64,000 nucleotides of DNA from an uncultured Planctomycetales bacterium (GTDB lineage Bacteria; Omnitrophota; Gorgyraeia; Gygaellales; Profunditerraquicolaceae), in contig CAZYCL010000001.1 in NCBI GenBank assembly GCA_964645795.1, forward strand, positions 95,194 through 159,193, given 5' to 3'. The translations under genes and the position numbers were made by a program. Position 1 is the stretch's first letter. The number at the start of each line of letters is the position of its first letter. Under the pieces are notes generated by a model. That model ran no database searches and had not been told where the DNA came from. It saw nothing but the letters and a program-made list of their open reading frames with translations. This document shows, piece by piece, positions 9,480 through 38,091 of the stretch.

Positions 9480-9503
9480 GGGAACTGCTCCTTTCTAAAA
9501 ACC

Positions 9504-10086: not shown

Positions 10087-10920
10087 CTATCCTCCGCCAA
10101 TCAGACCCATCGCCAAGGTGGCGGCCGCGTTTGCCTGCGCTAATGCGGCAACACCAGACTGAACGATTATCTGTGAATTGGTAAGGTTGGTTGTTTCTGC
10201 CGCGATGTCGGCATCATAGATCCTGGAACGAGCTGCTTTAAGGTTAGTGCTGTAGGACTCCTGGGCTGCGGTTGAACGCATCCAACCACTTGCCTGGGCA
10301 CCTAATGCAGCTATTGTCGGACCAACGGTTACCCTTACCGCAGATTTTATCTGCAGGATAGCGCTGTCCGCGCGCTGGATGGTGGAAATTGCCAATCCGG
10401 TAAGAGCTAAACCGCTACCACCGGCGGTCATCGTCTGGATGGACATAGTGACTACATCGGCTGCGGAAGCACCGGTCTGGATGGTTACGCCGGCCAAACT
10501 TCCGTTCATTAATACCCTGCCGTTGTAGTTGGCATTGGTCGTCAACCTCTGAATTTCGCTGATCAACTCCTGAAATTCATAGTTGTATGTGTTTCTCTGA
10601 TCGGGGGTCATCAAACCATTCTTTGCCAGGTATGCCAACTCGTTCATCCTCTGCAAATCGTCCTGGACGACGCGCAGAAATGAATCGGCGGTATTCAAGG
10701 CATCGATGGCCATATACAGGTTATTGGTACCGACATCAGTACCAGTAATCTGGAACTGCATCTGCAGGGCCATTAGATAACCTGCCGGATCGTCGTATGC
10801 GTGATTGATTCTGGAACCAGAAGAGAGTTTCTCTAGAGCCGATGTCAACGCCCTCTGCGTATACGTGAGGTTCGTCTGGGCTACCAGAGACATCGTATTG
10901 GTGAGAATTCTAAAACCCAT
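10087..10920 (-). CDS. fliC: Flagellin; short form with D0/D1 domains only
   Basis: N-terminus MGFRILTNTMSLVAQTNL and C-terminus ...QANAAATLAMGLIGG are canonical flagellin. 277 aa with a Ser/Thr-rich middle. AAGGAGG ribosome-binding site. Confidence 0.9.
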   Translation of the reverse strand: MGFRILTNTMSLVAQTNLTYTQRALTSALEKLSSGSRINHAYDDPAGYLMALQMQFQITGTDVGTNNLYMAIDALNTADSFLRVVQDDLQRMNELAYLAKNGLMTPDQRNTYNYEFQELISEIQRLTTNANYNGRVLMNGSLAGVTIQTGASAADVVTMSIQTMTAGGSGLALTGLAISTIQRADSAILQIKSAVRVTVGPTIAALGAQASGWMRSTAAQESYSTNLKAARSRIYDADIAAETTNLTNSQIIVQSGVAALAQANAAATLAMGLIGGG

Positions 10921-19493: not shown

Positions 19494-19494
19494 T

Positions 19495-24770: not shown

Positions 24771-26678
24771 TTAATTGCCGCCTCTCAAGAGGCCTTCTTT
24801 TACAATATCCAGCACCCATTGCATGCGGTGCTTCACGGTATGCTCTCTGAGAAGCCGCTCCTGCCCTCTTCTGGCTATCTCCATGCGTTGGTCATCGTGT
24901 TTTAAATAGAACTCGATCTTTTCGCGCAGCTCTTCTTTAGTCCTGAATACCTCTATCTCTTTACCCAACTCAAAAAGTTCGCCTATGCCTCCGGGCTCCT
25001 CATCCTCGGCGGTTAATCGAGTAAGGAGAAAACCTCCCGCGGCAATGGTATCAAATATGCGGGGGTGGTTATTGGTAGCCGCGTGCATATTCAGGTTGAT
25101 CTTGGCGGCATTCACGATCTTACAGATCTCGTCGCCGTAAGCGGCGCTTCCCCGGGCGCTGGCCTTAAAACGGGGGTCAAGCGACCAGCCTTTGCCGTAA
25201 AGCGAAAGGTTCATATCCCTGATGCTTTCAAGATAGGGCAGACGAAGGCTGGCAGCGGCAAGACCGCTCCAGAGGTAAGTGGTTAAAATCACGTTTTCGC
25301 TGATATCGCCGTAAATTTGCCTGCACTTTCTGCAGGCGTCTTCGTTCATCTCTATTTTACCGAATTTCTTCTTAGCCTGCTGATAAATTTCTCGAAAGGC
25401 AGCGAAATCGTACGAATCGGCTTCGCGCATTGCCTCAATTAAATACTCTACCACATCTGCCGGGATAAAGCTATTCGCCGAAGCATAATCAGGATAATGG
25501 CATATAAACGCGATATCGCTGCCGTATTTTTTCCTGTCTTCATCGCAAAGCTCCAGGCTCCGGTAGACATCGGTATCGGCTCCGAGATACAAACGGTGGA
25601 TCCTGTCTTTCTCAAAACCTAATTTCTCCAAATCGTCAATAAACATCGCTGCCACGATAAATATCTGATCATGCGGGCCGATCTTTTTATCCGCCCGGAT
25701 ACCGGGATTAAAGATAAAAGGCATATAATCCTGAATCCAGCTGGCCGTGATTAACCCGGGATGCTCATACGACTCACCCGCAAGATGATTGATCTTAAAA
25801 TAAATGTCAGGCATGAACTCGCGTAACATCTTGTAAAAATAGACCTGTGATATCAATAGCGTATCCGATTCTAAGACTTGCGTCTGGCAGCCAAGAAGGT
25901 TAAAACCTTTTATGCAGGTGCGCATAGAATGCTGCATATAGGCAGTCGTGGTATTAAGCTCTCCCAAAACGCGTAACCTGCGCCCTGATTTTTCAGATAA
26001 AACATCGACAAGCCTGCTGCGGTCGATCTGGCGGTAATGGGAACTGACCTCAAGGAGGCAGCGCTGCGCGTCTTCGTACATTCCCTTAACCAAAGAAAAA
26101 ATGCTTTTCTGGGCGTCTTGGTAAAAAGCGTGGTCCTCTGCGGCGCAAAAGACAGCACCGAGGAAAGGGATCTGGCCCTGATAGCCGCTGCGCAAGAAAT
26201 CCGTAAATGAATTTACGGCATCTTGTCCGGCAAATATGTAAACTTTGCGGGATTCGAACAATTGCCGCAAATCAAAATGGCGCATTATGGCCTTAAGGAT
26301 CCCCGTATGACGCTCGATTACGAAAAAAACATCCGACTGCTCGCTCCTCGAACATGCGTAAAACAGGCGCACTCCGGCATCAAGCCCAAAAAAGATAAAG
26401 GCGCCGTTATGAGCGGACATTTTAGCCAGATAGCCGTTCGCCTCGGGGAAAATCTCTTCTCTGTAATACTTTTTCAGCTCATGCATCAGCCTGCGTTCCC
26501 CGCCTTTTTTGACAAAAACCCCCAGATCTCCCTCTTCATTAACTGCGGCCAACTCAAACTCAGAGCCGTTATCGGCAGCCAACTGCTGATAAAGAGGATA
26601 ATTATGGATCTTTAATGAAGCCAGGTTCTCCTCATAGAAGTTTTCAGACAACATTTGCCCCTCTTCGGCCCGTTTCAT
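24771..26678 (-). CDS. Maf-like N-terminal region fused to a CgeB/GT1-like C-terminal domain; putative flagellin glycan transferase
   Basis: The N-terminus (FYEENLASLKIHNYPLYQQL) resembles Maf/DUF115 starts. The last ~150 aa (LYGKGW...RTKEELREKIEFYLKHDDQRMEIARRGQERLLREHT) look like a CgeB-type glycosyltransferase C-terminus. Confidence 0.45.
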   Translation of the reverse strand: MKRAEEGQMLSENFYEENLASLKIHNYPLYQQLAADNGSEFELAAVNEEGDLGVFVKKGGERRLMHELKKYYREEIFPEANGYLAKMSAHNGAFIFFGLDAGVRLFYACSRSEQSDVFFVIERHTGILKAIMRHFDLRQLFESRKVYIFAGQDAVNSFTDFLRSGYQGQIPFLGAVFCAAEDHAFYQDAQKSIFSLVKGMYEDAQRCLLEVSSHYRQIDRSRLVDVLSEKSGRRLRVLGELNTTTAYMQHSMRTCIKGFNLLGCQTQVLESDTLLISQVYFYKMLREFMPDIYFKINHLAGESYEHPGLITASWIQDYMPFIFNPGIRADKKIGPHDQIFIVAAMFIDDLEKLGFEKDRIHRLYLGADTDVYRSLELCDEDRKKYGSDIAFICHYPDYASANSFIPADVVEYLIEAMREADSYDFAAFREIYQQAKKKFGKIEMNEDACRKCRQIYGDISENVILTTYLWSGLAAASLRLPYLESIRDMNLSLYGKGWSLDPRFKASARGSAAYGDEICKIVNAAKINLNMHAATNNHPRIFDTIAAGGFLLTRLTAEDEEPGGIGELFELGKEIEVFRTKEELREKIEFYLKHDDQRMEIARRGQERLLREHTVKHRMQWVLDIVKEGLLRGGN

Positions 26679-27796
26679 TGCGGTCTGCGGTATTCCGGAA
26701 AATAGCCATTAGGCTGATTATCTACCCCGGAAATATTGGAGTAAGCCCTGAACTGCATGCAAAGCTGCTGGTATAGACGGCTATCATGGATGGTTGAATA
26801 AGTATAAAAATCGCAACAAGCGCCGGAAAAAGATGATTTAAAGCTGTAGAGTGAATCTGCGCCGCTGTTATGGTATCCGCCGCCCAGGCTGAAAACCTTA
26901 TAACCCTCTTTCTTGGCCCATAAAATCGCCTCATAAAGCAGGAGATTATTCGGGCATAAAGACAGGTGATGTTGGTCAGAACCCGAAAAGTAATAATGAA
27001 TATAGTTTCCCAGATGCAGGAATACGGATGAGGCGATCTTATCACTTTTATAAAAAGCGCTGAAGAGGGAAATATTGTCTTTGAGCGAAGAAAATAAATC
27101 CAGGAAGAACTCCAATGAAAAGAAATAGAATCGGCTTGCCTGGTTGCGGCTCATCGTAGAGGCATAAAGCTCATAAAACTTTTTAATGCTCTCTTGCGAA
27201 ACTACGTCTTTTTTGATCTCCACCCCCTGCCGCTGCGCCTTTTTAATAGAGCTTCTATTGCCCTTGGAAAAACCTTTGCGGATAATATCTTCGGTCTGCA
27301 ACAGGTCCACATAAACAATCCGGCGGTTCATTCGCGCCGAAAACATCTCAAGCGTATCCTTGTCGCCGTTGTAATACGGATTGACCCTGCCGAATTCGCA
27401 GACAATCTTATTTTCCCGGCAAAAATCGTTGAATGTCTTAAGAAAGAACGGAATAAAGTTTTCTTTATCTTTAGCCGGACATTCAATGATCGGTCCGCTG
27501 TATTCCGGAGTTATAATGTCAAAGGCCTCCTCTTTTCCTTCGTAAAACGGCAAAAGATGCACAGGCCTGCGCAGAAAAATATGCACTGCCCGGTTTCTAC
27601 CCTGATTTAGGCAAAAAAGCCCGGCCTTGGCCTGATATAGATTCTCGTAAACCCGGGCATAGCCTGGTAGCAGAAAAACATCCTGATGCGGCCTTTCCAG
27701 GCAGCCAAGCTCATCCAACCACTGCGATTGATCTTCCGGAAGCGAGAAATTCTTAACCTGATAGTCCGCGCTCATTTCTCGGCTCTGATCACCCAA
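26675..27796 (-). CDS. FemAB-like (Acetyltransf_6/BioF2-like) aminoacyl- or acyltransferase
   Basis: FYELY...RFYFFSLEFF...YYFSGSD...PNNLLLYEAILWAKKEGYKVFSLGGG is typical of the FemAB/GNAT-type fold. Confidence 0.6.
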   Translation of the reverse strand: MGDQSREMSADYQVKNFSLPEDQSQWLDELGCLERPHQDVFLLPGYARVYENLYQAKAGLFCLNQGRNRAVHIFLRRPVHLLPFYEGKEEAFDIITPEYSGPIIECPAKDKENFIPFFLKTFNDFCRENKIVCEFGRVNPYYNGDKDTLEMFSARMNRRIVYVDLLQTEDIIRKGFSKGNRSSIKKAQRQGVEIKKDVVSQESIKKFYELYASTMSRNQASRFYFFSLEFFLDLFSSLKDNISLFSAFYKSDKIASSVFLHLGNYIHYYFSGSDQHHLSLCPNNLLLYEAILWAKKEGYKVFSLGGGYHNSGADSLYSFKSSFSGACCDFYTYSTIHDSRLYQQLCMQFRAYSNISGVDNQPNGYFPEYRRPQ

Positions 27797-28443
27797 TGCC
27801 TGATGCTGTTCTTACGGTTATCAAACGTCCTTTCGGCATATTCATAAGAATGATTTCTGAAAACACTAAAAAGAGCGCGTATTTCCTTCTCGCTGAAAAA
27901 ATGAATCCAGCCGACGTCTTTTAAATCAAAATCGTTGTAGTCGGTATAAGTCCCCTCTTCTATTTTACGCCCTTTTCCATAGGCATAATCCTTATCGGTG
28001 CGCACCATGGAGAAGAATTCCCCTGCGGGTTTCAGGGTGCGGTATACTTCTTTAACGGACTTTCTGATGCCGGCAAGGCGATTATGCTGCAAGGAAACGC
28101 AATCAATGACCACGTCAAAATAGTTATCAGGATAAGGAAGGCGGTTAAAATCCCCTGCCCTGACAAGCGCCTTAAGCCTAAAGGTTTTCAGCTTTTGCCT
28201 GCATAAAGATACGGCTTGGGGTGATCCTTCTATGCCGTAAGCCTTAAACCCCTCTTGCGCCAGGAATATCACGTGCCTGCCCGGGCCGCACCCCAAATCC
28301 AGGATGCGATACCTGCCTCTTTCCTGCGCCGGAAACCTGAAATATTTCCCGGCGATAAAACGCACGACGAATTCATCGGGATACTTGGCCCGGAACCCCT
28401 GCTCGGCATAAATATCATCCCACCTGGAATCCCAGCTTTTCAT
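27772..28443 (-). CDS. Class I SAM-dependent methyltransferase
   Basis: ILDLGCGPGRHVIFLAQEGFKAYGIEGS motif. Confidence 0.75.
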   Translation of the reverse strand: MKSWDSRWDDIYAEQGFRAKYPDEFVVRFIAGKYFRFPAQERGRYRILDLGCGPGRHVIFLAQEGFKAYGIEGSPQAVSLCRQKLKTFRLKALVRAGDFNRLPYPDNYFDVVIDCVSLQHNRLAGIRKSVKEVYRTLKPAGEFFSMVRTDKDYAYGKGRKIEEGTYTDYNDFDLKDVGWIHFFSEKEIRALFSVFRNHSYEYAERTFDNRKNSIRHWVIRAEK

Positions 28444-30063
28444 CTACCCTCCGTTTTTCAATGCCGCCAGCTGCGCTATCCTGGCTCTTGCCTCTTGATT
28501 ATCCGGGTTTATTTTTAGCACCCTTTCGTATTCCTTAAGCGCGTTGTCTTTATCGCCTTTGGCCTGGTGGCATTTGCCAAGGCATAAGTGGGCGACTTCG
28601 TGTTCAGGATAAAACTTGATCACCCGGTTAAAATCCCTTATCGCCACATCAAACCTTCCTTCACGCATATTGATATTATTTAGAAAATTAATATTTAAGT
28701 TTGTTTCAAACCATTTACCCTGCAGATACTCGGGGTCAAATTCGGGTGTCTTTATGCTGCCGATGGTATACTTTAACTTAGATAACTGGAAATCTCCGAC
28801 AAGATACCCCTTTTCTTTGCATATATCATACATAGCAGTACCGGGCAGAGGCGTAGCAATATTCATCGCTACCCAATCAAGGCCTACGGTCCTGATAAAA
28901 TTAAGCGTTTCTTCGACTTGAGATTTATTTTCATCGGGAAAACCGATGATAAAAAACCCCTTGGTGTGTAATCCTAAGGCGCGCATCTTCTTGACTAAAG
29001 GCGCTACCCTGGACAGATCCAGCGGTTTATGCACTATATTATCAAGCACCTCCTGCGAGCCAGATTCAATAGCGATAGCCACCGAAAAGCATCCCGATTC
29101 TTTCATAAGTTCCACGGTCGATTCATCGAGGGCAAAAACCGCCAGGCCGTTAGGCGCGCACCAGGAGATGTTGAATTTTTGTGCGATCATGTTGCTAAAT
29201 ATCTCTTTTGCCCGCGGGATATTAAAAGTCATATTGTCGTCTTCAAAATGTATCTCCCTTATGCCATAATCCCTCACTAAAATTCCTATTTCTTCCAGAA
29301 CGTTGCGGCTGGAGCGGATGCGGTACTTTTTGCCCCATAACTTTAGGGCCGAACAAAAAATACAACGGGCGGGACAGCCGCGCGAAGTGATCATGGTGGC
29401 AAAAGGCATGCGCAGAAAATCGCCGTGCGGCTGGGATATTTCGGAGTATAACTTCATGGGGATAAGGTGCCTGGCGGGAAACGGGATTGAATCCAGATCT
29501 TCAATAAACTTTGTTTTCTGGTTAATGCGCAGGCTGCCGCCCTTGCGATAAGCCAAACCGTCAAAATCATCAAACTCTAGGTTCTTCTCCAGGCGCTCGA
29601 TCAGCTCCGGCAGCGCATAATCGCCCTCTCCCAAGACAGCAAAATCAACCAACTCATCCTCCATCACCAGCTGCGGAAAGGTTGTCGGATGGGCTCCGCC
29701 CATGACCGTAATTATATCTTTGTCCGCATCCTTGGCCAACCGGCATAAGTTGTGCGCATCCCTATATTTATTGGTAAGCACGCAGGATACGCCTACCATA
29801 TCAGGCTTGAATTCGATTATCCTTTCCTTTATGCCGCTGTCGGTAAGGCCGTAGCGGATCATGCCTGCGGAGAGCTTGGAAGGGGACAAAAACCCTTCCA
29901 CCAGGCAATCAACGATCTTGACATCATAACCCAGCTTTTCCAGCACCGCAGCAACATAGGCGATCCCCAGCGGAGGCACGACCGGCATGCGCTGCTGCTG
30001 CACGGCGCCTTCAGGCAATGTAACCGGCGGCTCAAATAATATTATCTTCTTTATCTTTTTCAC
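28444..30063 (-). CDS. B12-binding (class B) radical SAM enzyme with a C-terminal TPR
   Basis: N-terminal cobalamin-binding Rossmann region (VGVSCVLTNKY...VMGGAHPT). TSRGCPARCIFCS radical SAM motif. C-terminal TPR (EYERVLKINPDNQEA). Confidence 0.85.
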   Translation of the reverse strand: MKKIKKIILFEPPVTLPEGAVQQQRMPVVPPLGIAYVAAVLEKLGYDVKIVDCLVEGFLSPSKLSAGMIRYGLTDSGIKERIIEFKPDMVGVSCVLTNKYRDAHNLCRLAKDADKDIITVMGGAHPTTFPQLVMEDELVDFAVLGEGDYALPELIERLEKNLEFDDFDGLAYRKGGSLRINQKTKFIEDLDSIPFPARHLIPMKLYSEISQPHGDFLRMPFATMITSRGCPARCIFCSALKLWGKKYRIRSSRNVLEEIGILVRDYGIREIHFEDDNMTFNIPRAKEIFSNMIAQKFNISWCAPNGLAVFALDESTVELMKESGCFSVAIAIESGSQEVLDNIVHKPLDLSRVAPLVKKMRALGLHTKGFFIIGFPDENKSQVEETLNFIRTVGLDWVAMNIATPLPGTAMYDICKEKGYLVGDFQLSKLKYTIGSIKTPEFDPEYLQGKWFETNLNINFLNNINMREGRFDVAIRDFNRVIKFYPEHEVAHLCLGKCHQAKGDKDNALKEYERVLKINPDNQEARARIAQLAALKNGG

Positions 30064-30121
30064 TTTTCCTCAATGCTGCATTTTTAGATACAGACAAAAA
30101 TCTTGGCAATTTTGGCTATTT

Positions 30122-31729
30122 TCAGGAATTAAGCCTTTCTTTGGCTTCACTGGAATCCGGGTTAAGCTCTAACGCTGTTCTCCACTCTCTGGCCGCTTCC
30201 TCAACCATGCCTTTCTTTTTATAGGCATCGCCTAAGAAGAGGTGGCCGTACCAGATATGCGGATAAAACTCCAGGACGGACTGAAAATCCCTGATCGCTT
30301 CGTCAATATCATATTTAATCAAATTAGGGTTATTCCTGAAATTTATGTCGATATTGGCTTCCTCTTTGACCTTCTCAACGTAATCGCCGTCAAACTCAGG
30401 AGTCTGGATATTGCCGGCGTAGAAACTGTGCGCGAAATCCACGGATTCGTCCTTTAGATAGCGCTTATTCTTGCAAATCTCATAAATCTTGGTCCCCACC
30501 AGAGGCGTGGCGATAAAAAACAGGGTCCAGTCCAGCTCAAGGCTTTTGGCGAAATCCACTGTCTTTTGCATGGTCTTCTTAGTCTCTCCGGGAAAGCCTA
30601 AAATAAAAAATCCCTTGGTCTTCATGCCCAGCGAGCGCGCCTTATCTGCGAGCGGTTTGGCGCGGTTAAGCTTTATCGGTTTGTGCATCAATTTATCCAG
30701 GACATGCTGGTCTCCGGATTCGACGGCCAGCGAAATGCTGTAACAGCCGCTTTGCGCCATTTTTTCCAGCAACTCCTCGTCTAAGGAATAAATCGCCAGG
30801 CCGCTGGGGACGGTCCAACTGATATTAAATTTTCTATCGATTATCCCGTTAAATATCTCCAGGGCGCGCTTTTTGTTGGAGGTTAAATTGTCGTCTTCAA
30901 AGTGTATTTCCTTGACTCCGTACTTTTTGATGAGAAACTCAATTTCTTCAAGGATGCTTTTGCTTGAGCGGTAGCGCGGGACCTTTCCCCATAAAAGCTC
31001 TATTGAGCAGAATGTGCATTTGGCAGGGCAGCCGCGCGAGCTGATAATCGAAGCGAAAGGTTTGTTTTTGTAGCCGCTGTGCGCCGAGCCAAGCCGGCTG
31101 TACTCCTGCATGCTTAAAAGGTGCCGCGCGGGAAAAGGCAGGGTATCGAGATTAGGGATAAAATGCGCCTTGTGGACACAATTAATTTTTCCTTCGTGAC
31201 GATAGGCGATACCATCGAGCATCCTTGGGTCTCCGCCTGACTTAATAATGCCTAACAACTGCAAGAAAGTCATTTCTCCTTCGCCTAAAATTACGTAATC
31301 AATGTTTATTTCATTTTCCAGGAGCTCTCTGGCAATAGCCGTAGGATGCACCCCCCCTACAGCCACCAAACACCGGGGGTTGACTTTCTTAACAATGCGG
31401 CTGGCGTTGCGCATATCCCAATCCTTGTTTGAAAAAAGACACGAAATGCCGACAATATCGGGATTTTCTTTACGCAGGATCTCTTCGATCTGCTGGTCAG
31501 TCAGGCCATAACGCAACATCCCTTCGTTATATTTTTGCTGCCCCTGCCCTGCCCCCTCCAGTAGCGCATCAATAATCTTTACCTCATAGCCTGAATCCTC
31601 CAGCACCGCTGCGATATAGGCCAGCCCCAAAGGCGCGAATACGCTGACGCGACAACGCTCTTTAGAGAAATCCGCGGGCCTGGTCACCGGAGGGTCTATC
31701 AGCAATATCTTTTTTATCCTACTGGTCAT
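30122..31729 (-). CDS. B12-binding radical SAM enzyme with a C-terminal TPR; tandem paralog of the 28444-30063 protein
   Basis: Roughly 55-60% identical by eye to the neighbouring protein over the core (FPARHL...SSRGCPAKCTFCS...EIHFEDDN...KFNISW). TPR tail EWRTALELNPDSSEA. Confidence 0.85.
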   Translation of the reverse strand: MTSRIKKILLIDPPVTRPADFSKERCRVSVFAPLGLAYIAAVLEDSGYEVKIIDALLEGAGQGQQKYNEGMLRYGLTDQQIEEILRKENPDIVGISCLFSNKDWDMRNASRIVKKVNPRCLVAVGGVHPTAIARELLENEINIDYVILGEGEMTFLQLLGIIKSGGDPRMLDGIAYRHEGKINCVHKAHFIPNLDTLPFPARHLLSMQEYSRLGSAHSGYKNKPFASIISSRGCPAKCTFCSIELLWGKVPRYRSSKSILEEIEFLIKKYGVKEIHFEDDNLTSNKKRALEIFNGIIDRKFNISWTVPSGLAIYSLDEELLEKMAQSGCYSISLAVESGDQHVLDKLMHKPIKLNRAKPLADKARSLGMKTKGFFILGFPGETKKTMQKTVDFAKSLELDWTLFFIATPLVGTKIYEICKNKRYLKDESVDFAHSFYAGNIQTPEFDGDYVEKVKEEANIDINFRNNPNLIKYDIDEAIRDFQSVLEFYPHIWYGHLFLGDAYKKKGMVEEAAREWRTALELNPDSSEAKERLNS

Positions 31730-33162
31730 TTCTTTCTTGCGGCAATGGACTGCGCGGTGACGTTGCGGCCGCGCAACTTTGGCGTCCTCTTATAATAAAA
31801 CTCTAACAGCTTCTTAACTCCGGGCACTCCCCTAAAGTAAAAAAATAGTTTCGATAACCAAAGCGCGGTATACGGTATAACGCTTGCCAACTGGTAATAA
31901 AAATCGGATTCGTCATAGTCAGAATACCCGCGCTCGTAGGGGTTGGTTCTCGGGACTACCCCTCTTTGTTTATATATCTCTTCCAATTCTGTACGGGGAT
32001 AGGCTGTTAAGGCATAAAGCGTCAAGGAAAACGGCCGGGCAATTTTAAGAAGAAGCTTTATGGTCTGGTTGCGGTCACGATCCTCTTCCAGGTCGTTTTG
32101 TATAATGATATCGTAGTAAGGATACACTTGGTTGCGGCTTAATATACGCGATGAACCGACTACGGCGCTTTTATTGAACGACCGATGGTAGATCAGGCGG
32201 TGCGTACGGCTGCTGCCCGACTGTATGCCGATCTGAGTAAACATCAAACCCGCATCCTTTAATTTCTTTAGTACGCCGTCATCGAAACTGCCCGGCACAA
32301 GCCTTACGATAAAAGGCAGCCCTACCTCTTTCGTATAACGTTCGATAAATTCGTCATTCCACTGCCTGGAAGTCAGAAATTGATCATCAATAAAATTAAC
32401 GAATTTGATATTCGGGATATACTCTAAGGCATATTTGATCTCGGCAATGACGTGACCGACGCTTCGTTTCCTTATCCTGTTACCCTCTTTATAGAGGCTA
32501 TTTAAATAGCTGTTACAGCAATAGCTGCAGCTAAAGGGGCAGCCTCGCGTTGCCATTAAAGTATAATCCTCGCCCCGGTAATTTGAATACCTTACATACT
32601 CCTCTTGGCTGAACCGGCGAAGGCCGAATCTGTCAATAACATAAAAATCAGACCAGCCGTACCGCGGGAAGGCAATACTGTCTAAGTCGCTATTTAACTG
32701 CGGAGGATTTATGATGCACTTGCCTTCTTTTGTCTTTAAGCCGATGCCGGGTATCGAAGAAATATCCCTTCCGGTAAAAAAACATTGCAGTAGCTTAAGA
32801 AACGCTACCTCTCCTTCCCCGATACATACGCTATCTGCATATTCAAGGCATTCCTGCGGCATAAGCGTCGGGTGTATCCCTCCCCATGTAATGTGAGCGC
32901 GGTCAAGAAATTTTTTTATATCCGAGGTTAGGCGGCGGCTGAAATCCATCCCATCGGTCATCAGCGATATGCCGACTACCGAGAAGGCCTCTGCGTTCAG
33001 CAGCTCCCTCAATTGCTCGCTATTATATTCGTCTTGCCTTGGGACAAAAAGGAGCTTTACATCGATAGAAGCTGCCTTTAATGCCGAATACAGCGAAAGA
33101 CAGCTTAAATTACGGTGACTGTCGCGTAAAATAGAAATAAGGAGAACGCTTGGTTCAGGCAT
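31726..33162 (-). CDS. B12-binding radical SAM enzyme
   Basis: VVGISLMTDG...ITWGGIHPT B12 region and MATRGCPFSCSYCCNS. No TPR tail. Confidence 0.8.
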   Translation of the reverse strand: MPEPSVLLISILRDSHRNLSCLSLYSALKAASIDVKLLFVPRQDEYNSEQLRELLNAEAFSVVGISLMTDGMDFSRRLTSDIKKFLDRAHITWGGIHPTLMPQECLEYADSVCIGEGEVAFLKLLQCFFTGRDISSIPGIGLKTKEGKCIINPPQLNSDLDSIAFPRYGWSDFYVIDRFGLRRFSQEEYVRYSNYRGEDYTLMATRGCPFSCSYCCNSYLNSLYKEGNRIRKRSVGHVIAEIKYALEYIPNIKFVNFIDDQFLTSRQWNDEFIERYTKEVGLPFIVRLVPGSFDDGVLKKLKDAGLMFTQIGIQSGSSRTHRLIYHRSFNKSAVVGSSRILSRNQVYPYYDIIIQNDLEEDRDRNQTIKLLLKIARPFSLTLYALTAYPRTELEEIYKQRGVVPRTNPYERGYSDYDESDFYYQLASVIPYTALWLSKLFFYFRGVPGVKKLLEFYYKRTPKLRGRNVTAQSIAARKK

Positions 33163-33164
33163 TG

Positions 33165-34301
33165 CTAAAAACTCAGGCGTCTGTTCAAGAGACGATCATC
33201 CAGCTTAACAGCCCTCAATATATTAGTAATCTTTTTATCCGTATTCAAGTCGCGGTAGGGATTGCCTCCTTTTATCCGTTTATAGCTATTCTTTCTAAAC
33301 CGCTTTATGGCCTGGATAATCTTACGTTTAGAATAGGGCACATCGACAACATTGGCCGCGCGCTCCCTACCGTCCTGACGGCTGCCGATATTTACCACAG
33401 GCGTGCCGAAAAACGGCGCCTCAACTATACCGCTGGAAGAATTGCCTATCAGTACCGAGGCATATTTGAGCAGCCCCAGATAATAAGGACGCTCGATATT
33501 CTTGAATATCCTGATAAAAGGAAACTTGCGATACTTTAATATTTCCTTAATCATGCTTTGCCCGCCCATATCGCAATTGGGATAGAATATTACGGTTTGG
33601 GTTTTAAAATGCCTTGCCGCCTCAAGCGTCCGGCGCATCTGCAAGGCCGCATCCCGATATTCATTCGCCACCGGATGCTGGATCACTAAAAATAGGGCCT
33701 TATTAAGATCTATCCCCAGCTTTCTTCGGATCTCTTCCTTTGAACAGGACTGTCCGAGAATGGCTTTGGATACGGCCAGGGTCCCGACATATTTGATGCG
33801 CCATGGCTCCTCCCCCATTCTTAAAAGCCTCTTGCAGCTTGCCTTTGTATTTGCCAAATGAAGATGAGCAAACCTGGATAAGCTGTGCCTTATGGCATCA
33901 TCCATGCCTCCGGAAACATCGCCTCCGGATATATGGACAATGGGCAGATTCAAGAATGCCGCGGCAAGCCCTGCCGCAAGCATCTCGATCCTGTCAGCCT
34001 CAAGCACTACGATATCAGGCTCTAATTTTTTAAAAATACGCGCAAAACCCGGTACCGCCCTGGCAAATGAACCGGCCAGTTGCAAGCCGCCTTCTTTCCC
34101 GGAAAAAATATCCAGTTTTGCGCTTATTTTGAAGCCATCCTTGCGGATGATATCTACCGATGAACCAAAACGCCGCATAAGATGCATCCCGCAGACAACC
34201 AATTGCAGCCTTAAATCAGCGCTGTCCCTGATGCGCTCTAAAAACGGCTTCATCACCCCGTATTCTGCCCGCGTTCCCGTAATAACGCATATTTTTCTCA
34301 T
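33165..34301 (-). CDS. neuC: UDP-N-acetylglucosamine 2-epimerase (hydrolysing), NeuC/LegG family
   Basis: KICVITGTRAEYGVMKP...VHISGGDVSGG...YLGLLKYASVLIGNSSSGIVEAPFFGTPVVNIG is the NeuC signature. Confidence 0.85.
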   Translation of the reverse strand: MRKICVITGTRAEYGVMKPFLERIRDSADLRLQLVVCGMHLMRRFGSSVDIIRKDGFKISAKLDIFSGKEGGLQLAGSFARAVPGFARIFKKLEPDIVVLEADRIEMLAAGLAAAFLNLPIVHISGGDVSGGMDDAIRHSLSRFAHLHLANTKASCKRLLRMGEEPWRIKYVGTLAVSKAILGQSCSKEEIRRKLGIDLNKALFLVIQHPVANEYRDAALQMRRTLEAARHFKTQTVIFYPNCDMGGQSMIKEILKYRKFPFIRIFKNIERPYYLGLLKYASVLIGNSSSGIVEAPFFGTPVVNIGSRQDGRERAANVVDVPYSKRKIIQAIKRFRKNSYKRIKGGNPYRDLNTDKKITNILRAVKLDDRLLNRRLSF

Positions 34302-35737
34302 GCCGCGTACTGGAATTTTCCTTTACAAAATTGGCATAAAGACAAATTTTCGAGCCTGTGATTCAATAAAGAACACTGCAACATCTTCATGCGCTCGGAG
34401 CTCCAGACCGCATCAACGCTGCAGTCTTTCGCATTGCCGAGCTCCATCTCTGCGTTAACATCATAGCAGCACGGAGTGATGGTGCCATCGCATAGAATGT
34501 TCAGTTTCTCAAGAGATTCCGGACACAGCGTATCCTGCCCAGCCGCGCGTCCCGGAATAATTGCCGCTTCTTTGAACGAAAACAACTTTCCGTCACGGCC
34601 AAAGAAACTCCCTCCCAGCCTGCGGTCAAGCACAGAGAACCCGCTGTAATCAACCAGGGGCAGGAGCGAAGATAAAAAACCAGAAGTTTTCCTGGTGCCT
34701 TCGGGATCGCTAAACGGTATGACCGAGGTTATGCCCAGCTTTATCTGGTCCTCAAGCCCCATTTCTTTCCTTTCACGGTTAACCGTCTTTATGATCCTGC
34801 AAATCTTGTTCCAGCTGCTGCCCTTACGCACCGACTCATAGCTCTCTTTGCTGAAACCGTCAACAGAAAACCAGATGCCCGAAGGCCGGGCTTCCAGTAT
34901 CTTTTTTCTCCGCTCGCAATCTGCCAGCGCAAATCCATTGGTCTGTAAAGCAAGGTATATCCCCTCTTGCCTGATCTTTGATATCAAGGTATCGATCCCC
35001 GGATGCAGCAGCGGCTCTCCCATATAATAAAATTTGATAACGCCGGGCACTTTCCAATTCTTAATTATGGCTCTATCCAAAACTAAATGCGGGATGCTTA
35101 TCTCAATACTCCTCGCGCTCCAGCCTGAAATTATCTTATCTAAAAGGGCCTCATCAAGATACCCGATGTTTCTGGCCATCTTGTGGCGGGGGCACATCAG
35201 GCATTTTATGTCGCAATTGTTGGTAGGTTCGACCTGAAGCACAAAGGGGGATTTGGGCACAGGATAAATCCCTCCCTCCACGCATCCCGATTCGTTCCTG
35301 ATGCACCAAACAAGGTGGCGTTTCAACATGCTCTCCGCTTCTTTACGCAAAAGAAGGTCTTCTACATCGTGCGCTATGAGACGCGCCTTTACCGCCGCCT
35401 TGTTGCTGTATTTTAACGCCAGGGTATTGTCCAGCTTAAAAACGGTATGAAATTCTGAGAGCGCCGCCAATTGCAACGCCACCTGTCCGACAAAACGCTT
35501 GGTTTCAATATCCGGATTCTTGAACAAAAGCAAATTTTCATAAAGCTCGCAGATTTCGTTTAAATGCGCCAGGCCTCCCGAGAAATCATCGTCGTAAATC
35601 TTGGCTATTCCCGCGCAGTAACGCACTGCCAAATCCTGCGGCCGGTGCATCACGATGCTTTCAGTCAGGTCGATAATATCTTTTATCCTGCGCTGTTTTG
35701 AGAGCTCATACAGTCTGTTCTTGAGTTCGCAATCCAT
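34298..35737 (-). CDS. Radical SAM enzyme with a full SPASM-like C-terminal domain and a ~150-aa N-terminal helical extension
   Basis: NNCDIKCLMCPRH. C-terminus CPESLEKLNILCDGTITPCCYD....C....C..C. Confidence 0.8.
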   Translation of the reverse strand: MDCELKNRLYELSKQRRIKDIIDLTESIVMHRPQDLAVRYCAGIAKIYDDDFSGGLAHLNEICELYENLLLFKNPDIETKRFVGQVALQLAALSEFHTVFKLDNTLALKYSNKAAVKARLIAHDVEDLLLRKEAESMLKRHLVWCIRNESGCVEGGIYPVPKSPFVLQVEPTNNCDIKCLMCPRHKMARNIGYLDEALLDKIISGWSARSIEISIPHLVLDRAIIKNWKVPGVIKFYYMGEPLLHPGIDTLISKIRQEGIYLALQTNGFALADCERRKKILEARPSGIWFSVDGFSKESYESVRKGSSWNKICRIIKTVNRERKEMGLEDQIKLGITSVIPFSDPEGTRKTSGFLSSLLPLVDYSGFSVLDRRLGGSFFGRDGKLFSFKEAAIIPGRAAGQDTLCPESLEKLNILCDGTITPCCYDVNAEMELGNAKDCSVDAVWSSERMKMLQCSLLNHRLENLSLCQFCKGKFQYAA

Positions 35738-36277: not shown

Positions 36278-37324
36278 CTACAGGTCGCCCTTCCTGATGG
36301 GCATATCCCTCTTAACGTCTTTCTTTAGCTTCTTGCCGATGATTTCAAAGTAGTGTTTCGGCAGAAGCCCATGCTGAGGTCGTTTAATTGCCAAATGTTG
36401 TTTTTTGATCCTGGTGCCCCTGGGTAAATCCACTTTGGCCACTATGCTTTTTCTTATGCAAGTCATGTCCTTTTTCTCGGTCTTGGTCGGACATTTCTTG
36501 CTGCTGCCAAGGCACTCTTCCGTTTCACGTAAAAGCTTTACGAAAACCTTGAACTCTTCGGGCTCATAGGAAGAGGCGTGGTCGGGACCGGGAAGCTTTC
36601 GGTCAAGGGTTATATGCTTTTCAATAACGCAGGCACCAAGGCTGACCGCACTCATACTGGCGCTAACGCCTGCAGTATGGTCGGAATATCCTACCGGAAG
36701 CCTCAGGCATTCTCTGATAGTCGAAAGCGCGCGCATATTCACGTCTTTGAGCGGGCAGGGGTATTGGGTCGTCGTATGCATCACTATAAGTGGAACCCGC
36801 CTGGTCTTAAGAATTACATCGTATACGGCCTCTTTTATCTCCTTGAGCGTGCCCATGCCCGTAGAAAGAATGATGGGTTTGCCTTTTGCGGCAACGTATT
36901 CCAGAAGCGGGAAATTGTTAAGGTCATCGGAACCGATCTTGAATAACGACACTCCCAGCCTGTCTAACAGGTCGGCCGAGGCAAAATCTCCCGGAGTAGA
37001 AATCAGGATTATGCCTCTGTCTTTGGCAAACTTCATAAGCTGAAAGTGGTCCTGGTCCGACAGCTCCAGGGCCCTAAGCATGTCAAACTGAGTACGCGCG
37101 CCCTTGGCAAACTCCTTTTGATAGGGGACCAGCCTGGTCGTGCGGCTTACCACCTCTTCGGTCTTGAATGTCTGGAACTTTACGGCGTCGGCGCCCGCAT
37201 GGCTGGCTGCCACGATCAATCTCTTGGCCAGCTCAATATCTCCGTTATGATTGACTCCCGCTTCTGCAATTATAAAGACAGGTTTGTTATTGCCGATTTC
37301 TTTTTTCCCGATTTTAACAATCAT
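36278..37324 (-). CDS. neuB: N-acetylneuraminate / legionaminate / pseudaminate synthase (NeuB family)
   Basis: KPVFIIAEAGVNHNGDIELAKRLIVAASHAGADAVKFQTF. C-terminal SAF/antifreeze-like domain. Confidence 0.9.
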   Translation of the reverse strand: MIVKIGKKEIGNNKPVFIIAEAGVNHNGDIELAKRLIVAASHAGADAVKFQTFKTEEVVSRTTRLVPYQKEFAKGARTQFDMLRALELSDQDHFQLMKFAKDRGIILISTPGDFASADLLDRLGVSLFKIGSDDLNNFPLLEYVAAKGKPIILSTGMGTLKEIKEAVYDVILKTRRVPLIVMHTTTQYPCPLKDVNMRALSTIRECLRLPVGYSDHTAGVSASMSAVSLGACVIEKHITLDRKLPGPDHASSYEPEEFKVFVKLLRETEECLGSSKKCPTKTEKKDMTCIRKSIVAKVDLPRGTRIKKQHLAIKRPQHGLLPKHYFEIIGKKLKKDVKRDMPIRKGDL

Positions 37325-37368: not shown

Positions 37369-38091
37369 CTAAATTATCATCCCCCCTTTTCTTTTTTTCA
37401 TTATTAATCCAGCTATCTCTAAATCGAAATAATTATCTATGTCCCAGGCAGCCAGATCTCCGGTCGTAAAACCGATAACTTTATGCCCTTTAAAGTAGTG
37501 CGAAACAATGAACGGGTCTGAGCCATAAAGCAGGCTTGTCTTCAGGATTATCAACCCGGAATCGATGTAAAAAACAGGAGGCAGGCGCTGGCTGCGGAAA
37601 GTTGAGATTTTTTTTGCATAGAGATTAAACCTGCGGTTTTTTGCCAGAATAACCAGGCGCTCGGGGTGAAACCGCTCAACGGGGGAAACCGTTACCAGAG
37701 CATCCGCCCTGCAGGAAATCATCTTTTTTATTGCCGAATCTATGAGCCCTTTTTCACGAAAAGGAACATTTGCATATAAGAGCGCAATCGCATCCGGCCG
37801 GTAACCGTCTTTTTCCTTCAGGTATTCTACGGCATGCCTTAACGGCTCCTCTATGGGGGAATAATCGGTTGCGTACCGGCTGGGCCGCTTGATTGCCTCC
37901 AAACCGCGGGCCCTGACAAGCTTAAAGATCCGCTCGGAGTCTGTAGAGCACACTACCCTGTCCAAAAGCCGTGACTGCCTGGCTGCATCTATGGTATAAC
38001 TTATCAAAGGCCTGCCTCGGAAAATAAGTATATTCTTATTGCGCACTCTCTTGCTGTTTCCTCTGGCTGTAATTATCCCTAGTATTTTCAT
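37369..38091 (-). CDS. neuA: Acylneuraminate cytidylyltransferase (CMP-nonulosonate synthetase, NeuA/LegF/PseF family)
   Basis: MKILGIITARGNSKRVRNKNI...STDSERI matches the CMP-NeuAc synthetase N-terminus. Confidence 0.85.
   Translation of the reverse strand: MKILGIITARGNSKRVRNKNILIFRGRPLISYTIDAARQSRLLDRVVCSTDSERIFKLVRARGLEAIKRPSRYATDYSPIEEPLRHAVEYLKEKDGYRPDAIALLYANVPFREKGLIDSAIKKMISCRADALVTVSPVERFHPERLVILAKNRRFNLYAKKISTFRSQRLPPVFYIDSGLIILKTSLLYGSDPFIVSHYFKGHKVIGFTTGDLAAWDIDNYFDLEIAGLIMKKRKGGMII

What the first reader, a model, noticed from the sequence alone, without database searches (positions are those of the whole stretch)
28444..33162. Three consecutive B12-binding radical SAM enzymes, two of them a tandem paralog pair with C-terminal TPRs
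Class B (cobalamin-dependent) radical SAM enzymes typically methylate unactivated carbon or phosphinate centres (GenK-, Fom3- and TsrM-type chemistry). Three in a row next to NeuC/NeuB suggests serial C-methylation, or other radical alkylation, of a nonulosonic acid or its precursor. That would be an unusual sugar chemistry. The 28444-30063 and 30122-31729 proteins are clearly duplicates (FPARHL...SRGCPA[RK]C[IT]FCS...EIHFEDDN...KFNISW). Both end in a TPR-like helical repeat, which could dock them onto a protein partner, possibly flagellin or a Maf.
Basis: inference. Interest (0 to 1): 0.75.

Follow-up and report, generated by a model that had tools for sequence, protein, structure and literature searches.

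The report
B12 radical SAM enzymes tailoring flagellar sialic-like sugar
Three neighbouring genes for vitamin-B12-dependent radical enzymes sit inside a flagellin-sugar-coating gene island, and one of them belongs to an uncharacterised enzyme family that travels with sialic-acid-like sugar genes in many uncultured bacteria and archaea, which points to a still unknown radical modification of these sugars.

Summary
Three consecutive minus-strand genes (A 28444-30063, B 30122-31729, C 31726-33162) encode B12-binding radical SAM proteins with intact CxxxCxxC and cobalamin motifs. A and B are 46% identical and each ends in two TPR repeats. They lie in a flagellin glycosylation island (flgN to flgK) of a probable Candidatus Omnitrophota genome.

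The link to nonulosonic acid is supported by comparative genomics. In 21 loci of the TPR-tailed clade, spanning at least six phyla including DPANN archaea, 14 carry NeuB or NeuC and 16 carry an orthologue of the window's FemAB-like gene. Among 143 non-TPR relatives the counts are 2 and 0. The neighbours form a legionaminic-acid-type pathway. Elsewhere, related B12 radical SAM enzymes are fused to the window's methyltransferase (a TPR-clade member) or to its FemAB-like neighbour (a more distant, non-TPR subfamily).

What is not supported:
- A and B are old paralogs with separate orthologues.
- C is an unrelated subfamily found in mixed contexts.
- The TPR cannot be a flagellin- or Maf-specific dock.

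No characterised family's threshold is met, so C-methylation is an inference. I found no literature on this link. This is a new variant of a known enzyme kind, of moderately high interest.

The parts
30122..31729 (-). Paralog B. B12-binding + radical SAM + two C-terminal TPR repeats (535 aa; gene callers elsewhere use a start 8 codons downstream). It is the orthologue of the NeuC/NeuB-linked TPR clade.
   Evidence: Pfam; sequence. It is the best match (43-51% identity) to the TPR-clade genes next to NeuC in L004-L007, L010, L015, L084, L085, L088. It falls in the B-type branch of the tree.
28444..30063 (-). Paralog A. Same architecture as B (539 aa, GTG start) and 46% identical to B. It belongs to a sister branch whose members lie either in legionaminic-type clusters or in Wzx/Wzy polysaccharide clusters.
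   Evidence: AlphaFold2 model has pLDDT 92.4. Foldseek matches are AprD4, MgmA, TsrM, OxsB, CysS and TokK.
31726..33162 (-). Enzyme C. B12-binding + radical SAM, no TPR (478 aa). It is a distinct subfamily, 22-26% identical to A and B.
   Evidence: Relatives are 50-59% identical and sit in mixed contexts.
33165..34301 (-). NeuC/LegG-type hydrolysing UDP/GDP-GlcNAc 2-epimerase. It lies 2 nt upstream of C.
   Evidence: TIGR03568 at 403 bits against a cut-off of 236.
34298..35737 (-). Radical SAM/SPASM protein (479 aa) between NeuB and NeuC.
   Evidence: Pfam. Radical SAM/SPASM genes recur in the related cassettes L174 and L175.
36278..37324 (-). NeuB/LegI-type nonulosonate synthase.
   Evidence: TIGR03569 at 404.7 bits (cut-off 399.65). 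The PseI model is not passed.
37369..38091 (-). CMP-nonulosonate synthetase (NeuA/LegF-like cytidylyltransferase).
   Evidence: PF02348 at 65.5 bits.
27772..28443 (-). Class I SAM methyltransferase abutting A. It is a conserved partner and is fused to the radical SAM enzyme in P0033.
   Evidence: Pfam. Orthologues at 34-40% identity occur in L004, L006, L010, L174, L175. In the fusion P0033, residues 510-713 are 35% identical to this protein.
26675..27796 (-). FemAB-like / Acetyltransf_6 acyl- or aminoacyl-transferase. It is the most tightly linked partner of the TPR clade.
   Evidence: Pfam. It is present in 16 of 21 TPR-clade loci and 0 of 143 others, p = 3e-18. It is fused to a B12 radical SAM in L007:5994-8417.
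5916..7850 (-). Maf-type flagellin glycosyltransferase (MptE-like plus Maf N-terminal domain). It is the likely transferase that places the nonulosonate on flagellin.
   Evidence: Pfam. NF050051 PseD domain at 114 bits, below its cut-off.
10087..10920 (-). Flagellin, the presumed acceptor of the glycan.
   Evidence: Flagellin_N and Flagellin_C.

Best explanation
The three genes encode cobalamin-dependent (class B) radical SAM tailoring enzymes of a legionaminic-acid-type nonulosonate. A Maf transferase then puts this sugar on flagellin, in a probable Candidatus Omnitrophota bacterium.

Enzyme B is the local orthologue of a widespread, uncharacterised, TPR-tailed subfamily. That subfamily is an accessory part of a conserved cassette: LegB/LegC-type dehydratase and aminotransferase, NeuC, NeuB, NeuA, a FemAB-like acyltransferase, a class I methyltransferase, and extra radical SAM enzymes.

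The most likely mechanism has three steps.
1. The FemAB-like enzyme puts an unusual acyl or aminoacyl group on the amine of the 4-amino-4,6-dideoxy-hexose precursor. This amine becomes N7 of the nonulosonate.
2. The B12 radical SAM enzyme abstracts a hydrogen from an unactivated carbon of that substituent or of the sugar skeleton, and transfers a methyl group from methylcobalamin.
3. The class I methyltransferase adds an N- or O-methyl group.

A is an old paralog that probably performs a second, related step, or the same step on a different amino sugar of the glycan. C is an unrelated class B enzyme that performs a further, unknown radical step. The two TPR repeats most likely hold the enzyme to its pathway partners, not to flagellin.

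Shown: domain content, motifs, paralogy, conserved neighbourhood, the fusions, and the flagellar setting.
Inferred: the substrate, the methyl-transfer chemistry, and the role of the TPR.
For: 1. Domains and motifs:
- Pfam B12-binding and Radical_SAM are above cut-off for all three.
- CxxxCxxC is present in each.
- GxSxL, GG and GE cobalamin motifs are invariant or nearly invariant in the 28-sequence family alignment, read against the motif definitions in PMC9204698.

2. Fold: the model of A has pLDDT 92.4. Its best solved matches are AprD4, MgmA, TsrM, OxsB, CysS and TokK, with E from 7e-23 to 1e-17.

3. Setting:
- The island lies between flgN and flgK, with flagellin, FliD and Maf nearby.
- A near-identical contig (L172) shows two dehydratase/aminotransferase pairs and WbqC within 9 kb beyond window position 1.

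4. Conserved neighbourhood:
- NeuC and/or NeuB, often with the FemAB-like and MT orthologues, accompany TPR-clade members in Pacearchaeota, Nanoarchaeia, Thermodesulfobacteriota, Elusimicrobia, Oligoflexia, Limnocylindrales and an Aenigmarchaeota-type contig.
- In several of these loci (L004, L005, L006, L174, L175) the order is NeuB, NeuC, then the radical SAM-TPR gene.
- Counts in 21 TPR-clade loci against 143 other loci: NeuB or NeuC 14 vs 2 (p = 2e-13), FemAB-like 16 vs 0 (p = 3e-18), MT 9 vs 5 (p = 2e-6).

5. Fusions:
- P0033 is this radical SAM enzyme joined to an orthologue of the window's MT, and sits between NeuB and NeuC.
- L007:5994-8417 is a B12 radical SAM of a more distant subfamily (31-33% identical to A and B, no TPR) joined to an orthologue of the window's FemAB-like protein.

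6. Tight operon-like spacing from NeuC through C, B, A, MT and FemAB, with overlaps or gaps of at most 58 nt.

7. Precedent: a FemAB-like gene lies in the C. difficile type B flagellin locus, whose glycan carries a peptidylamido sugar (PMC5207246).
Against: - No curated family threshold is reached, so the chemistry is not assigned by homology. The best hit is the Sden_1168 P-methyltransferase model at 283 and 256 bits against a cut-off of 575.
- Among the nearest characterised relatives, HpnJ, BchE, AprD4 and OxsB do not methylate.
- A-type relatives occur in polysaccharide clusters without NeuB. The true substrate may therefore be an amino-hexose or its N-acyl group rather than the nine-carbon sugar itself.
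- C has no consistent glycan context.
The Fisher p-values therefore overstate independence.
- No glycan chemistry is known for any organism that carries the cassette.
Confidence: 0.55

Rival explanations
1. The enzymes carry out non-methylating radical chemistry on the sugar. Candidates are ring contraction or rearrangement, deoxygenation or dehydration, epimerisation, or C-C bond formation. Precedents are HpnJ (amino-sugar ring contraction), OxsB and AprD4 (sugar diol dehydratase).
For: HpnJ is the second-best NCBIfam hit at 186-189 bits, and BchE is third. AprD4, a sugar-modifying radical SAM dehydratase, is the best solved-structure match by sequence (115 bits) and by fold (E = 7e-23).
Against: All these scores are far below family cut-offs. 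By sequence, AprD4 aligns only to the radical SAM half (profile positions 193-453). The cobalamin motifs here are strictly conserved. Most characterised class B enzymes are methylases (PMC9204698).
Confidence: 0.2
2. The enzymes, especially A, do not act on the nonulosonate. They act on another amino sugar of the flagellin glycan, or on its N-acyl chain. The rest of the island would build this sugar (GT9, 635-aa GT, split transketolase, RmlD, FkbM and other methyltransferases).
For: The closest relatives of A (55-57% identity) lie in Wzx/Wzy clusters. There they sit next to a Polysacc_synt_2 enzyme, an Acetyltransf_6 protein and a methyltransferase, with no NeuB within 10 kb. FemAB-like linkage (16 of 21) is stronger than NeuB or NeuC linkage (14 of 21).
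Against: Two A-branch members (L165, L083) and all well-covered B-branch members except L087 are inside NeuB/NeuC clusters. The 4-amino-4,6-dideoxy-hexose is itself the legionaminic acid precursor, so this reading overlaps with the main one.
Confidence: 0.15
3. They are P-methyltransferases of the PhpK/Sden_1168 kind that build a methylphosphinate or phosphonate decoration on the glycan.
For: NF038361 (Sden_1168 family P-methyltransferase) is the top NCBIfam hit for A and B, aligned almost end to end.
Against: The scores are about half the cut-off: 283 and 256 bits against 575. The PEP mutase signature EDKxxxxxNS (recalled from memory) is absent from the window, from L172 and from every TPR-clade locus. 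It occurs only in L019, beside a non-TPR relative.
Confidence: 0.04
4. They modify the flagellin polypeptide itself, by side-chain C-methylation like the MCR-modifying class B enzymes. The TPR would grip the protein substrate.
For: MgmA (glutamine methylase of methyl-coenzyme M reductase) is among the best structural matches. TPR repeats commonly bind peptides.
Against: The same TPR-tailed enzyme occurs in DPANN archaea, and in polysaccharide clusters that lack flagellin and Maf. It is fused to sugar-pathway partners.
Confidence: 0.04

Closest known systems
Class B (cobalamin-dependent) radical SAM methylases with solved structures: TokK, CysS, TsrM, MgmA
   Same: N-terminal Rossmann-type B12 domain with GxSxL, GG and GE motifs, a CxxxCxxC radical SAM barrel and a C-terminal cap. 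Foldseek E ranges from 1e-17 to 3e-22.
   Different: Sequence identity is only 14-18%. Here the C-terminal cap is a two-repeat TPR. The pathway context is a nonulosonate cluster, not an antibiotic, RiPP or MCR pathway. No family threshold is met.
Sden_1168 / PhpK P-methyltransferases (NF038361, TIGR04479)
   Same: Best-scoring curated family, aligned over about 420 residues.
   Different: Scores are about half the cut-off. There is no PEP mutase context. There is no TPR tail in the aligned part of the model.
HpnJ (hopanoid amino-sugar ring contraction) and AprD4 (aminoglycoside sugar diol dehydratase)
   Same: Radical SAM enzymes of the same architecture that act on amino sugars. HpnJ scores 186-189 bits. 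AprD4 is the top PDB match.
   Different: Their contexts are hopanoid and apramycin pathways. Scores are far below cut-offs. AprD4's N-terminal domain does not align by sequence.
Campylobacter-type legionaminic acid pathway (LegB, LegC, LegH, LegG, LegI, LegF, PtmA/E/F) with Maf transferases
   Same: NeuC/LegG, NeuB/LegI, NeuA/LegF and Maf are present, with dehydratase and aminotransferase genes just outside the window. Related cassettes also carry PtmE-like (CBS plus NTP transferase), SDR and GFO genes.
   Different: To my knowledge, the known pathway has no radical SAM enzymes. Here the cassette adds B12 radical SAM, radical SAM/SPASM, FemAB-like, WbqC and methyltransferase genes. No LegH-type hexapeptide acetyltransferase was seen in the cassettes examined.
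C. difficile type B flagellin modification locus (FemAB-like CDR20291_0244; peptidylamido sugar)
   Same: A FemAB-like gene lies in a flagellin glycan locus whose product bears an amino-acid-substituted amino sugar (PMC5207246).
   Different: That paper does not describe any B12 radical SAM enzyme or nonulosonate genes in the locus. The role of its FemAB-like gene is itself unproven.

Membership tests
Class B (cobalamin-dependent) radical SAM enzymes | Radical SAM domain with a CxxxCxxC [4Fe-4S] motif | tested here: met
   PF04055 scores 77.3, 81.4 and 47.9 bits against a cut-off of 29.5. The motifs are CPARCIFC in A, CPAKCTFC in B and CPFSCSYC in C.
Class B (cobalamin-dependent) radical SAM enzymes | N-terminal B12-binding Rossmann domain with base-off motifs (GxSxL-type, GG, GE) | tested here: met
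   PF02310 scores 94.4, 91.8 and 64.8 bits against a cut-off of 32.1. A has G91-V-S-C-V, G122-G123 and G145-E146; these glycines and the glutamate are invariant or at least 90% conserved in A1, and Ser93 matches the consensus. C has GISLM, WGG and GEGE. Motif definitions come from PMC9204698.
Class B (cobalamin-dependent) radical SAM enzymes | Fold matches solved class B enzymes | tested here: met
   The model of A has pLDDT 92.4. TsrM, OxsB, CysS, TokK and MgmA all match with Foldseek probability 1.00 and TM-scores (TMq) of 0.57-0.67. B and C were not modelled.
Class B (cobalamin-dependent) radical SAM enzymes | Actual cobalamin binding and methyl transfer | not testable with these tools
   This needs purified protein, UV-vis or EPR spectroscopy and activity assays.
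Sden_1168 family P-methyltransferase (NF038361) | Score at or above the curated cut-off (575 bits), and a phosphonate (PEP mutase) context | tested here: not met
   Scores are 283 bits for A, 256 for B and 56.8 for C. The PEP mutase motif is absent from the window and from TPR-clade loci.
HpnJ (TIGR03471) and BchE (TIGR02026) | Score at or above the curated cut-offs (577.6 and 481.35 bits) | tested here: not met
   HpnJ scores 186, 189 and 63 bits. BchE scores 157, 165 and 64 bits. The JGI labels 'Mg-protoporphyrin IX monomethyl ester cyclase' on relatives are therefore over-annotations.
TsrM (TIGR04428), PhpK (TIGR04479), HpnR (TIGR04367), KedN5 (NF033712), MCR glutamine methylase (TIGR04014) | Score at or above the curated cut-off | tested here: not met
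   All score between 21 and 122 bits against cut-offs of 360-700.
   No GenK or Fom3 model or sequence was available in the libraries used. Neither appeared among the PDB or NCBIfam hits.
TPR repeat proteins | TPR profile match above cut-off, with helical hairpins in the model | tested here: met
   TPR_2 scores 44.8 bits in A and 33.2 in B against a cut-off of 27. The profile matches consensus TPR proteins at positions 467-538. The model has helices at 471-484, 489-501, 505-518 and 523-537. C has none.
Legionaminic / neuraminic-type nonulosonate pathway | NeuC/LegG hydrolysing 2-epimerase, NeuB/LegI synthase and a CMP-transferase | tested here: met
   TIGR03568 scores 403 bits against a cut-off of 236. 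TIGR03569 scores 404.7 against 399.65, and PseI is not passed. PF02348 is present.
Legionaminic / neuraminic-type nonulosonate pathway | 4,6-dehydratase and aminotransferase (LegB, LegC), which separate Leg from Neu5Ac | tested here: inconclusive
   None is inside the window. A 99.97% identical contig has Polysacc_synt_2 and DegT pairs 2-8 kb beyond window position 1; one dehydratase is 56% identical to the L004 LegB-like protein. The sugar stereochemistry cannot be read from sequence.

The most novel reading that the evidence does not exclude
The conserved cassette (NeuB, NeuC, TPR-tailed B12 radical SAM, FemAB-like, methyltransferase, and further radical SAM enzymes) makes a new class of nonulosonic acid. 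Either its carbon skeleton or its N-acyl or aminoacyl side chain is alkylated by radical, cobalamin-dependent methyl transfer. In this window the alkylation may be repeated by A, B and C. It would be the first radical SAM chemistry known in sialic-acid-like sugar biosynthesis. It would be present on flagella, on archaeal surfaces and on polysaccharides across many uncultured phyla.
Probability: 0.35. Interest if true: 0.8.

Novelty: new variant of a known kind. Interest (0 to 1): 0.66.

Why it matters
Nonulosonic acids (sialic, legionaminic and pseudaminic acids) shape how microbial surfaces and flagella are recognised. As far as I know, their known tailoring is limited to N- and O-acylation, amidination and O- or N-methylation. 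A cobalamin-dependent radical enzyme embedded in these pathways implies a modification at an unactivated carbon. The cassette is conserved from Omnitrophota and Chloroflexota to DPANN archaea. That would extend both sialic-acid-like sugar chemistry and the reaction scope of class B radical SAM enzymes.

It also gives a concrete, testable function to a subfamily of several thousand proteins. These are currently labelled only 'cobalamin-dependent protein', or mislabelled as BchE. It defines partner proteins (FemAB-like, methyltransferase) for reconstitution.

Tried and rejected
1. Assignment by curated families. NCBIfam gave no hit above cut-off for A, B or C. BchE, HpnJ, Sden_1168, PhpK, TsrM and the others were therefore rejected as memberships.
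2. P-methylation. No PEP mutase motif occurs in the window or in TPR-clade loci.
3. TPR as a flagellin or Maf dock. This was rejected because of the archaeal and polysaccharide contexts.
4. Recent tandem duplication. The tree places A and B in different branches, each with foreign orthologues. It is a neighbour-joining tree without bootstrap, so the branch order inside the clade is only indicative.
5. C as the orthologue of the 'second B12 radical SAM' next to FemAB in L001, L174, L175 and L006. Identity is only 26-28%, and those genes are no more than about 34% identical to each other. The extra B12 radical SAM genes are therefore variable accessories.
6. Looking for LegB and LegC inside the window. 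None was found. They were found only beyond the left end, through a near-identical contig.
7. Literature. Six searches combined radical SAM or B12 with nonulosonic, legionaminic, sialic acid or flagellin glycosylation, or Omnitrophota with flagella and glycosylation. None returned anything relevant.
8. Organism name. The exact proteins are on an NCBI contig of 352,447 bp but no name was returned. Taxonomy rests on FlhA similarity to Ca. Omnitrophota MAGs at 57-72% identity.
9. Model coordinates could not be inspected, so the position of the TPR relative to the active site is unknown.


Full report
**What is in the sequence**

All long ORFs of the window are on the minus strand. At the stated coordinates there are three consecutive genes.
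- A, 28444-30063, 539 aa.
- B, 30122-31729, 535 aa.
- C, 31726-33162, 478 aa.

Pfam finds a B12-binding domain followed by a Radical_SAM domain in each, all above the curated cut-offs. A and B also have C-terminal TPR repeats. A and B are 46% identical over 530 residues, E = 1e-178. C is only 22-26% identical to them.

The genes are tightly packed. NeuC ends 2 nt before C. C and B overlap by 4 nt if B uses its ATG. A follows B after 58 nt. A class I methyltransferase (27772-28443) abuts A. A FemAB-like gene (26675-27796) overlaps the methyltransferase.

**The setting**

The three genes lie in an island of about 24 kb inserted between flgN (38269-38763) and flgK (12790-14220). In gene order the island reads:
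- NeuA-like cytidylyltransferase, NeuB, a 173-aa coiled-coil protein, a radical SAM/SPASM protein, NeuC;
- C, B, A, methyltransferase, FemAB-like protein;
- a 635-aa glycosyltransferase, a GT9 glycosyltransferase, two more radical SAM proteins, a split transketolase;
- a methyltransferase, another radical SAM protein, an RmlD-like reductase, an FkbM methyltransferase and two more methyltransferase-like genes (the last matches only weakly, below Pfam cut-offs).

After flgK, flgL, fliW, flagellin and fliD come a Maf-type flagellin glycosyltransferase, another radical SAM/SPASM protein, an asparagine-synthase-like amidotransferase, a GNAT and a further radical SAM/SPASM protein. The window thus holds nine radical SAM genes.

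NeuC passes the NeuC/NnaA equivalog model. NeuB passes the NeuB/NnaB model but not PseI. The sugar is therefore of the neuraminic/legionaminic type, not the pseudaminic type.

The window itself has no 4,6-dehydratase or sugar aminotransferase. A contig from another sample (L172) is 99.97% identical over 11.5 kb. It continues beyond window position 1 with a glycosyltransferase, WbqC, a Polysacc_synt_2 dehydratase, a DegT aminotransferase and fliS. A second dehydratase (56% identical to an archaeal LegB-like protein) and a second DegT follow.

The FlhA of the window is most similar to named proteins of Candidatus Omnitrophota, at 72%, 58% and 57% identity. The exact proteins occur on an unnamed NCBI contig of 352 kb.

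**Are they cobalamin enzymes, and which kind**

The review PMC9204698 defines the base-off cobalamin motifs of class B radical SAM enzymes. These are a GxSxL-type motif on beta-3, a GG motif on beta-4 and a GE motif on alpha-5.
- A has G91-V-S-C-V, G122-G123 and G145-E146. These glycines and the glutamate are invariant or at least 90% conserved in a 28-sequence family alignment, and Ser93 matches the consensus.
- B has GISCL, GG and GE.
- C has GISLM, GG and GE.

An AlphaFold2 model of A is confident, with pLDDT 92.4. Its best solved matches are AprD4, MgmA, TsrM, OxsB, CysS and TokK, with E from 7e-23 to 1e-17 and 14-21% identity. The sequence search of the PDB agrees. Membership of class B is therefore met on every feature that sequence can test.

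No narrower family is met, however. The best NCBIfam hit for A and B is the Sden_1168 P-methyltransferase model (283 and 256 bits, cut-off 575). HpnJ, BchE, ApyD, a lipid-biosynthesis B12 enzyme, PhpK and the MCR glutamine methylase follow. C is nearest to TIGR04013 at 89 bits against a cut-off of 251. The chemistry therefore cannot be transferred by homology. The label 'Mg-protoporphyrin cyclase' that some sources attach to relatives is an over-annotation.

**The key evidence: a conserved cassette**

A protein search found more than 4000 relatives, almost all unnamed and from metagenomes. I scanned representative genomes and metagenome contigs with the family alignment and fetched 160 loci. 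I added a few contexts looked up by exact protein. Translated searches with the window's own proteins then gave a sharp split.

| Neighbour within 10 kb | TPR-tailed clade (21 loci) | Other relatives without TPR, 32-47% identical (143 loci) | Fisher p |
|---|---|---|---|
| NeuB or NeuC | 14 | 2 | 2e-13 |
| Orthologue of the window's FemAB-like protein | 16 | 0 | 3e-18 |
| Orthologue of the window's methyltransferase | 9 | 5 | 2e-6 |

Most of the TPR-clade loci that lack NeuB are short contigs.

The carriers include Pacearchaeota, Nanoarchaeia, an Aenigmarchaeota-type contig, Thermodesulfobacteriota, Elusimicrobia, Oligoflexia and Limnocylindrales.

Gene maps show a recurring order: NeuA, methyltransferase, NeuB, NeuC, radical SAM-TPR, a short DegT-like protein, FemAB-like, DegT, LegB-like dehydratase. 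CBS-nucleotidyltransferase (PtmE-like), SDR and GFO genes are often present too. This is the gene set of the Campylobacter-type legionaminic acid pathway, as I recall it. Most of these cassettes also carry one to three further, mutually divergent B12 radical SAM genes and a radical SAM/SPASM gene. The many radical SAM genes in the window are thus a recurring theme, not an oddity of this genome.

**Fusions**

P0033 (716 aa) lies between NeuB and NeuC. Its residues 5-510 are 45% identical to A. Its residues 510-713 are 35% identical to the window's methyltransferase over that protein's full length. In L007, an 807-aa protein joins a B12 radical SAM enzyme of a more distant subfamily (31-33% identical to A and B, no TPR) to a domain 31% identical to the window's FemAB-like protein. 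That locus also has Maf and the split transketolase. By their precomputed Pfam domains, other relatives are fused to WbqC (P0104) or to a sugar-phosphate transferase (P0148, a relative of C). These fusions argue that the radical SAM enzyme, the FemAB-like enzyme and the methyltransferase act in one short pathway segment.

In P0033 the methyltransferase replaces the last TPR repeat. This fits a TPR that normally holds a partner non-covalently, but that reading is an inference.

**A, B and C are not equivalent**

In a neighbour-joining tree the TPR clade separates from the non-TPR relatives and splits in two.
- B groups with its 85% identical counterpart in the syntenic relative L001 and with the NeuC-adjacent genes of most phyla.
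- A groups with its 76% identical counterpart in L001, with two Leg-cluster members (L165, L083), and with three 55-57% identical proteins. Those three sit in Wzx/Wzy polysaccharide clusters beside a Polysacc_synt_2 enzyme, an Acetyltransf_6 protein and a methyltransferase, with no NeuB nearby.

A and B are therefore old paralogs, each with its own orthologues. The feature common to all contexts is an amino-sugar pathway with a FemAB-like acyltransferase, rather than the nine-carbon sugar as such.

C belongs to another subfamily. Its relatives (50-59% identity) are found in a radical-SAM-rich glycan cluster (L169), but also in contexts with no visible glycan genes (L170, L171). It is not orthologous to the extra B12 genes of the other cassettes.

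**Most likely mechanism**

FemAB-family and Acetyltransf_6 enzymes transfer acyl or aminoacyl groups to amines. In the cassettes examined, no hexapeptide-type LegH acetyltransferase was seen.

I therefore propose that the FemAB-like enzyme acylates the 4-amino group of the 4-amino-4,6-dideoxy-hexose intermediate, which becomes N7 of the nonulosonate. The TPR-tailed B12 radical SAM enzyme would then methylate an unactivated carbon of that substituent or of the sugar, through 5'-deoxyadenosyl radical hydrogen abstraction and methylcobalamin. The class I methyltransferase would add a heteroatom methyl group. NeuC, NeuB and NeuA then complete and activate the sugar, and Maf transfers it to flagellin.

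The setting, the neighbourhood and the fusions are shown. The substrate, the order of steps and the methyl transfer are inferred. As a precedent, a FemAB-like gene lies in the C. difficile type B flagellin locus, whose glycan has a peptidylamido sugar (PMC5207246).

**Rivals**

- Non-methylating radical chemistry remains a serious alternative, because HpnJ, BchE and AprD4 are among the nearest characterised relatives.
- P-methylation is unlikely. The scores are half the cut-off, and the PEP mutase signature is absent from the window and from all TPR-clade loci. It appears only beside a non-TPR relative, L019.
- Direct modification of flagellin, with the TPR as a flagellin or Maf dock, is contradicted by the archaeal and polysaccharide contexts.

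**Novelty**

Six full-text searches combined radical SAM or B12 with nonulosonic, legionaminic, sialic acid or flagellin glycosylation, or Omnitrophota with flagella and glycosylation. None found a relevant paper. The enzyme class is known. The subfamily, its TPR tail and its fixed place in nonulosonate cassettes appear undescribed. I rate it a new variant of a known kind, with interest 0.66.

Noticed in passing
window 500-1522, 4277-5215, 18423-19799, 21851-22915, 22916-23815, 34298-35737 (all minus strand): Six further radical SAM genes lie in the same flagellar glycosylation island; four have SPASM domains and two do not. With A, B and C this makes nine in 64 kb. None reaches an NCBIfam cut-off. 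Radical SAM/SPASM genes also recur in the related cassettes L174 and L175.
   Followed up: partly
window 20151-21071 and 21068-21850 (minus strand); L007:19213-21137: A split transketolase-like pair (N-terminal TPP half and pyrimidine/C-terminal half) lies inside the glycan island. The same pair occurs with Maf and a TPR-type B12 radical SAM in L007. This suggests two-carbon transfer onto a sugar.
   Followed up: partly
L172:11042-18677 (beyond window position 1): The island continues past the window end with a GT1, WbqC and two dehydratase/aminotransferase pairs, and fliS is embedded between them. WbqC is 38% identical to the WbqC of the archaeal-type cassette L174. In P0104 it is fused to a B12 radical SAM relative.
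   Followed up: partly
L010:11601-13994: In an Elusimicrobia MAG, NeuB is fused to an N-terminal FAD amine-oxidase domain (797 aa), directly after the TPR-type radical SAM gene.
   Followed up: no
L019, about 8.1 kb on the + strand (frame 3, residue 2714): The PEP mutase signature EDKxxxxxNS occurs next to a non-TPR relative in a Woesearchaeota genome. Some non-TPR members of the wider family may therefore really be phosphonate or phosphinate enzymes, like Sden_1168.
   Followed up: no
L013:8499 and 9992; L016:8487 and 10001: Omnitrophota genomes carry tandem pairs of non-TPR relatives of A and B with no NeuB, NeuC or FemAB nearby. Tandem class B radical SAM pairs are therefore common in this phylum, in other unknown pathways.
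   Followed up: no
L164:10001-12595 (P0007, 864 aa); L004:11589-12494; L175:9601-10530: A short DegT-like protein of about 300 aa follows the TPR-type radical SAM gene in several cassettes. The window has no such gene. The 340-residue C-terminal extension of P0007 may be a fusion to a similar PLP-fold domain. This was judged by eye only and was not confirmed.
   Followed up: no
window 35738-36259 (minus strand): A 173-aa predicted coiled-coil protein with no Pfam family sits between NeuB and the radical SAM/SPASM gene. It gives only weak SMC-like and chain-length-determinant-like hits.
   Followed up: no
window 11089-11343 (minus strand): A small CsrA gene lies between fliW and flagellin. It was seen in the gene calls for the identical contig L172. 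It indicates the FliW-CsrA flagellin control circuit.
   Followed up: no
L003 / L164 neighbourhoods (L002:15200-19613; L164:1-2027 and 8676-9800): The A-type polysaccharide clusters also contain LeuA-like, isopropylmalate-dehydrogenase-like and branched-chain aminotransferase genes. This hints that an unusual amino or keto acid is made there and attached to the sugar.
   Followed up: no
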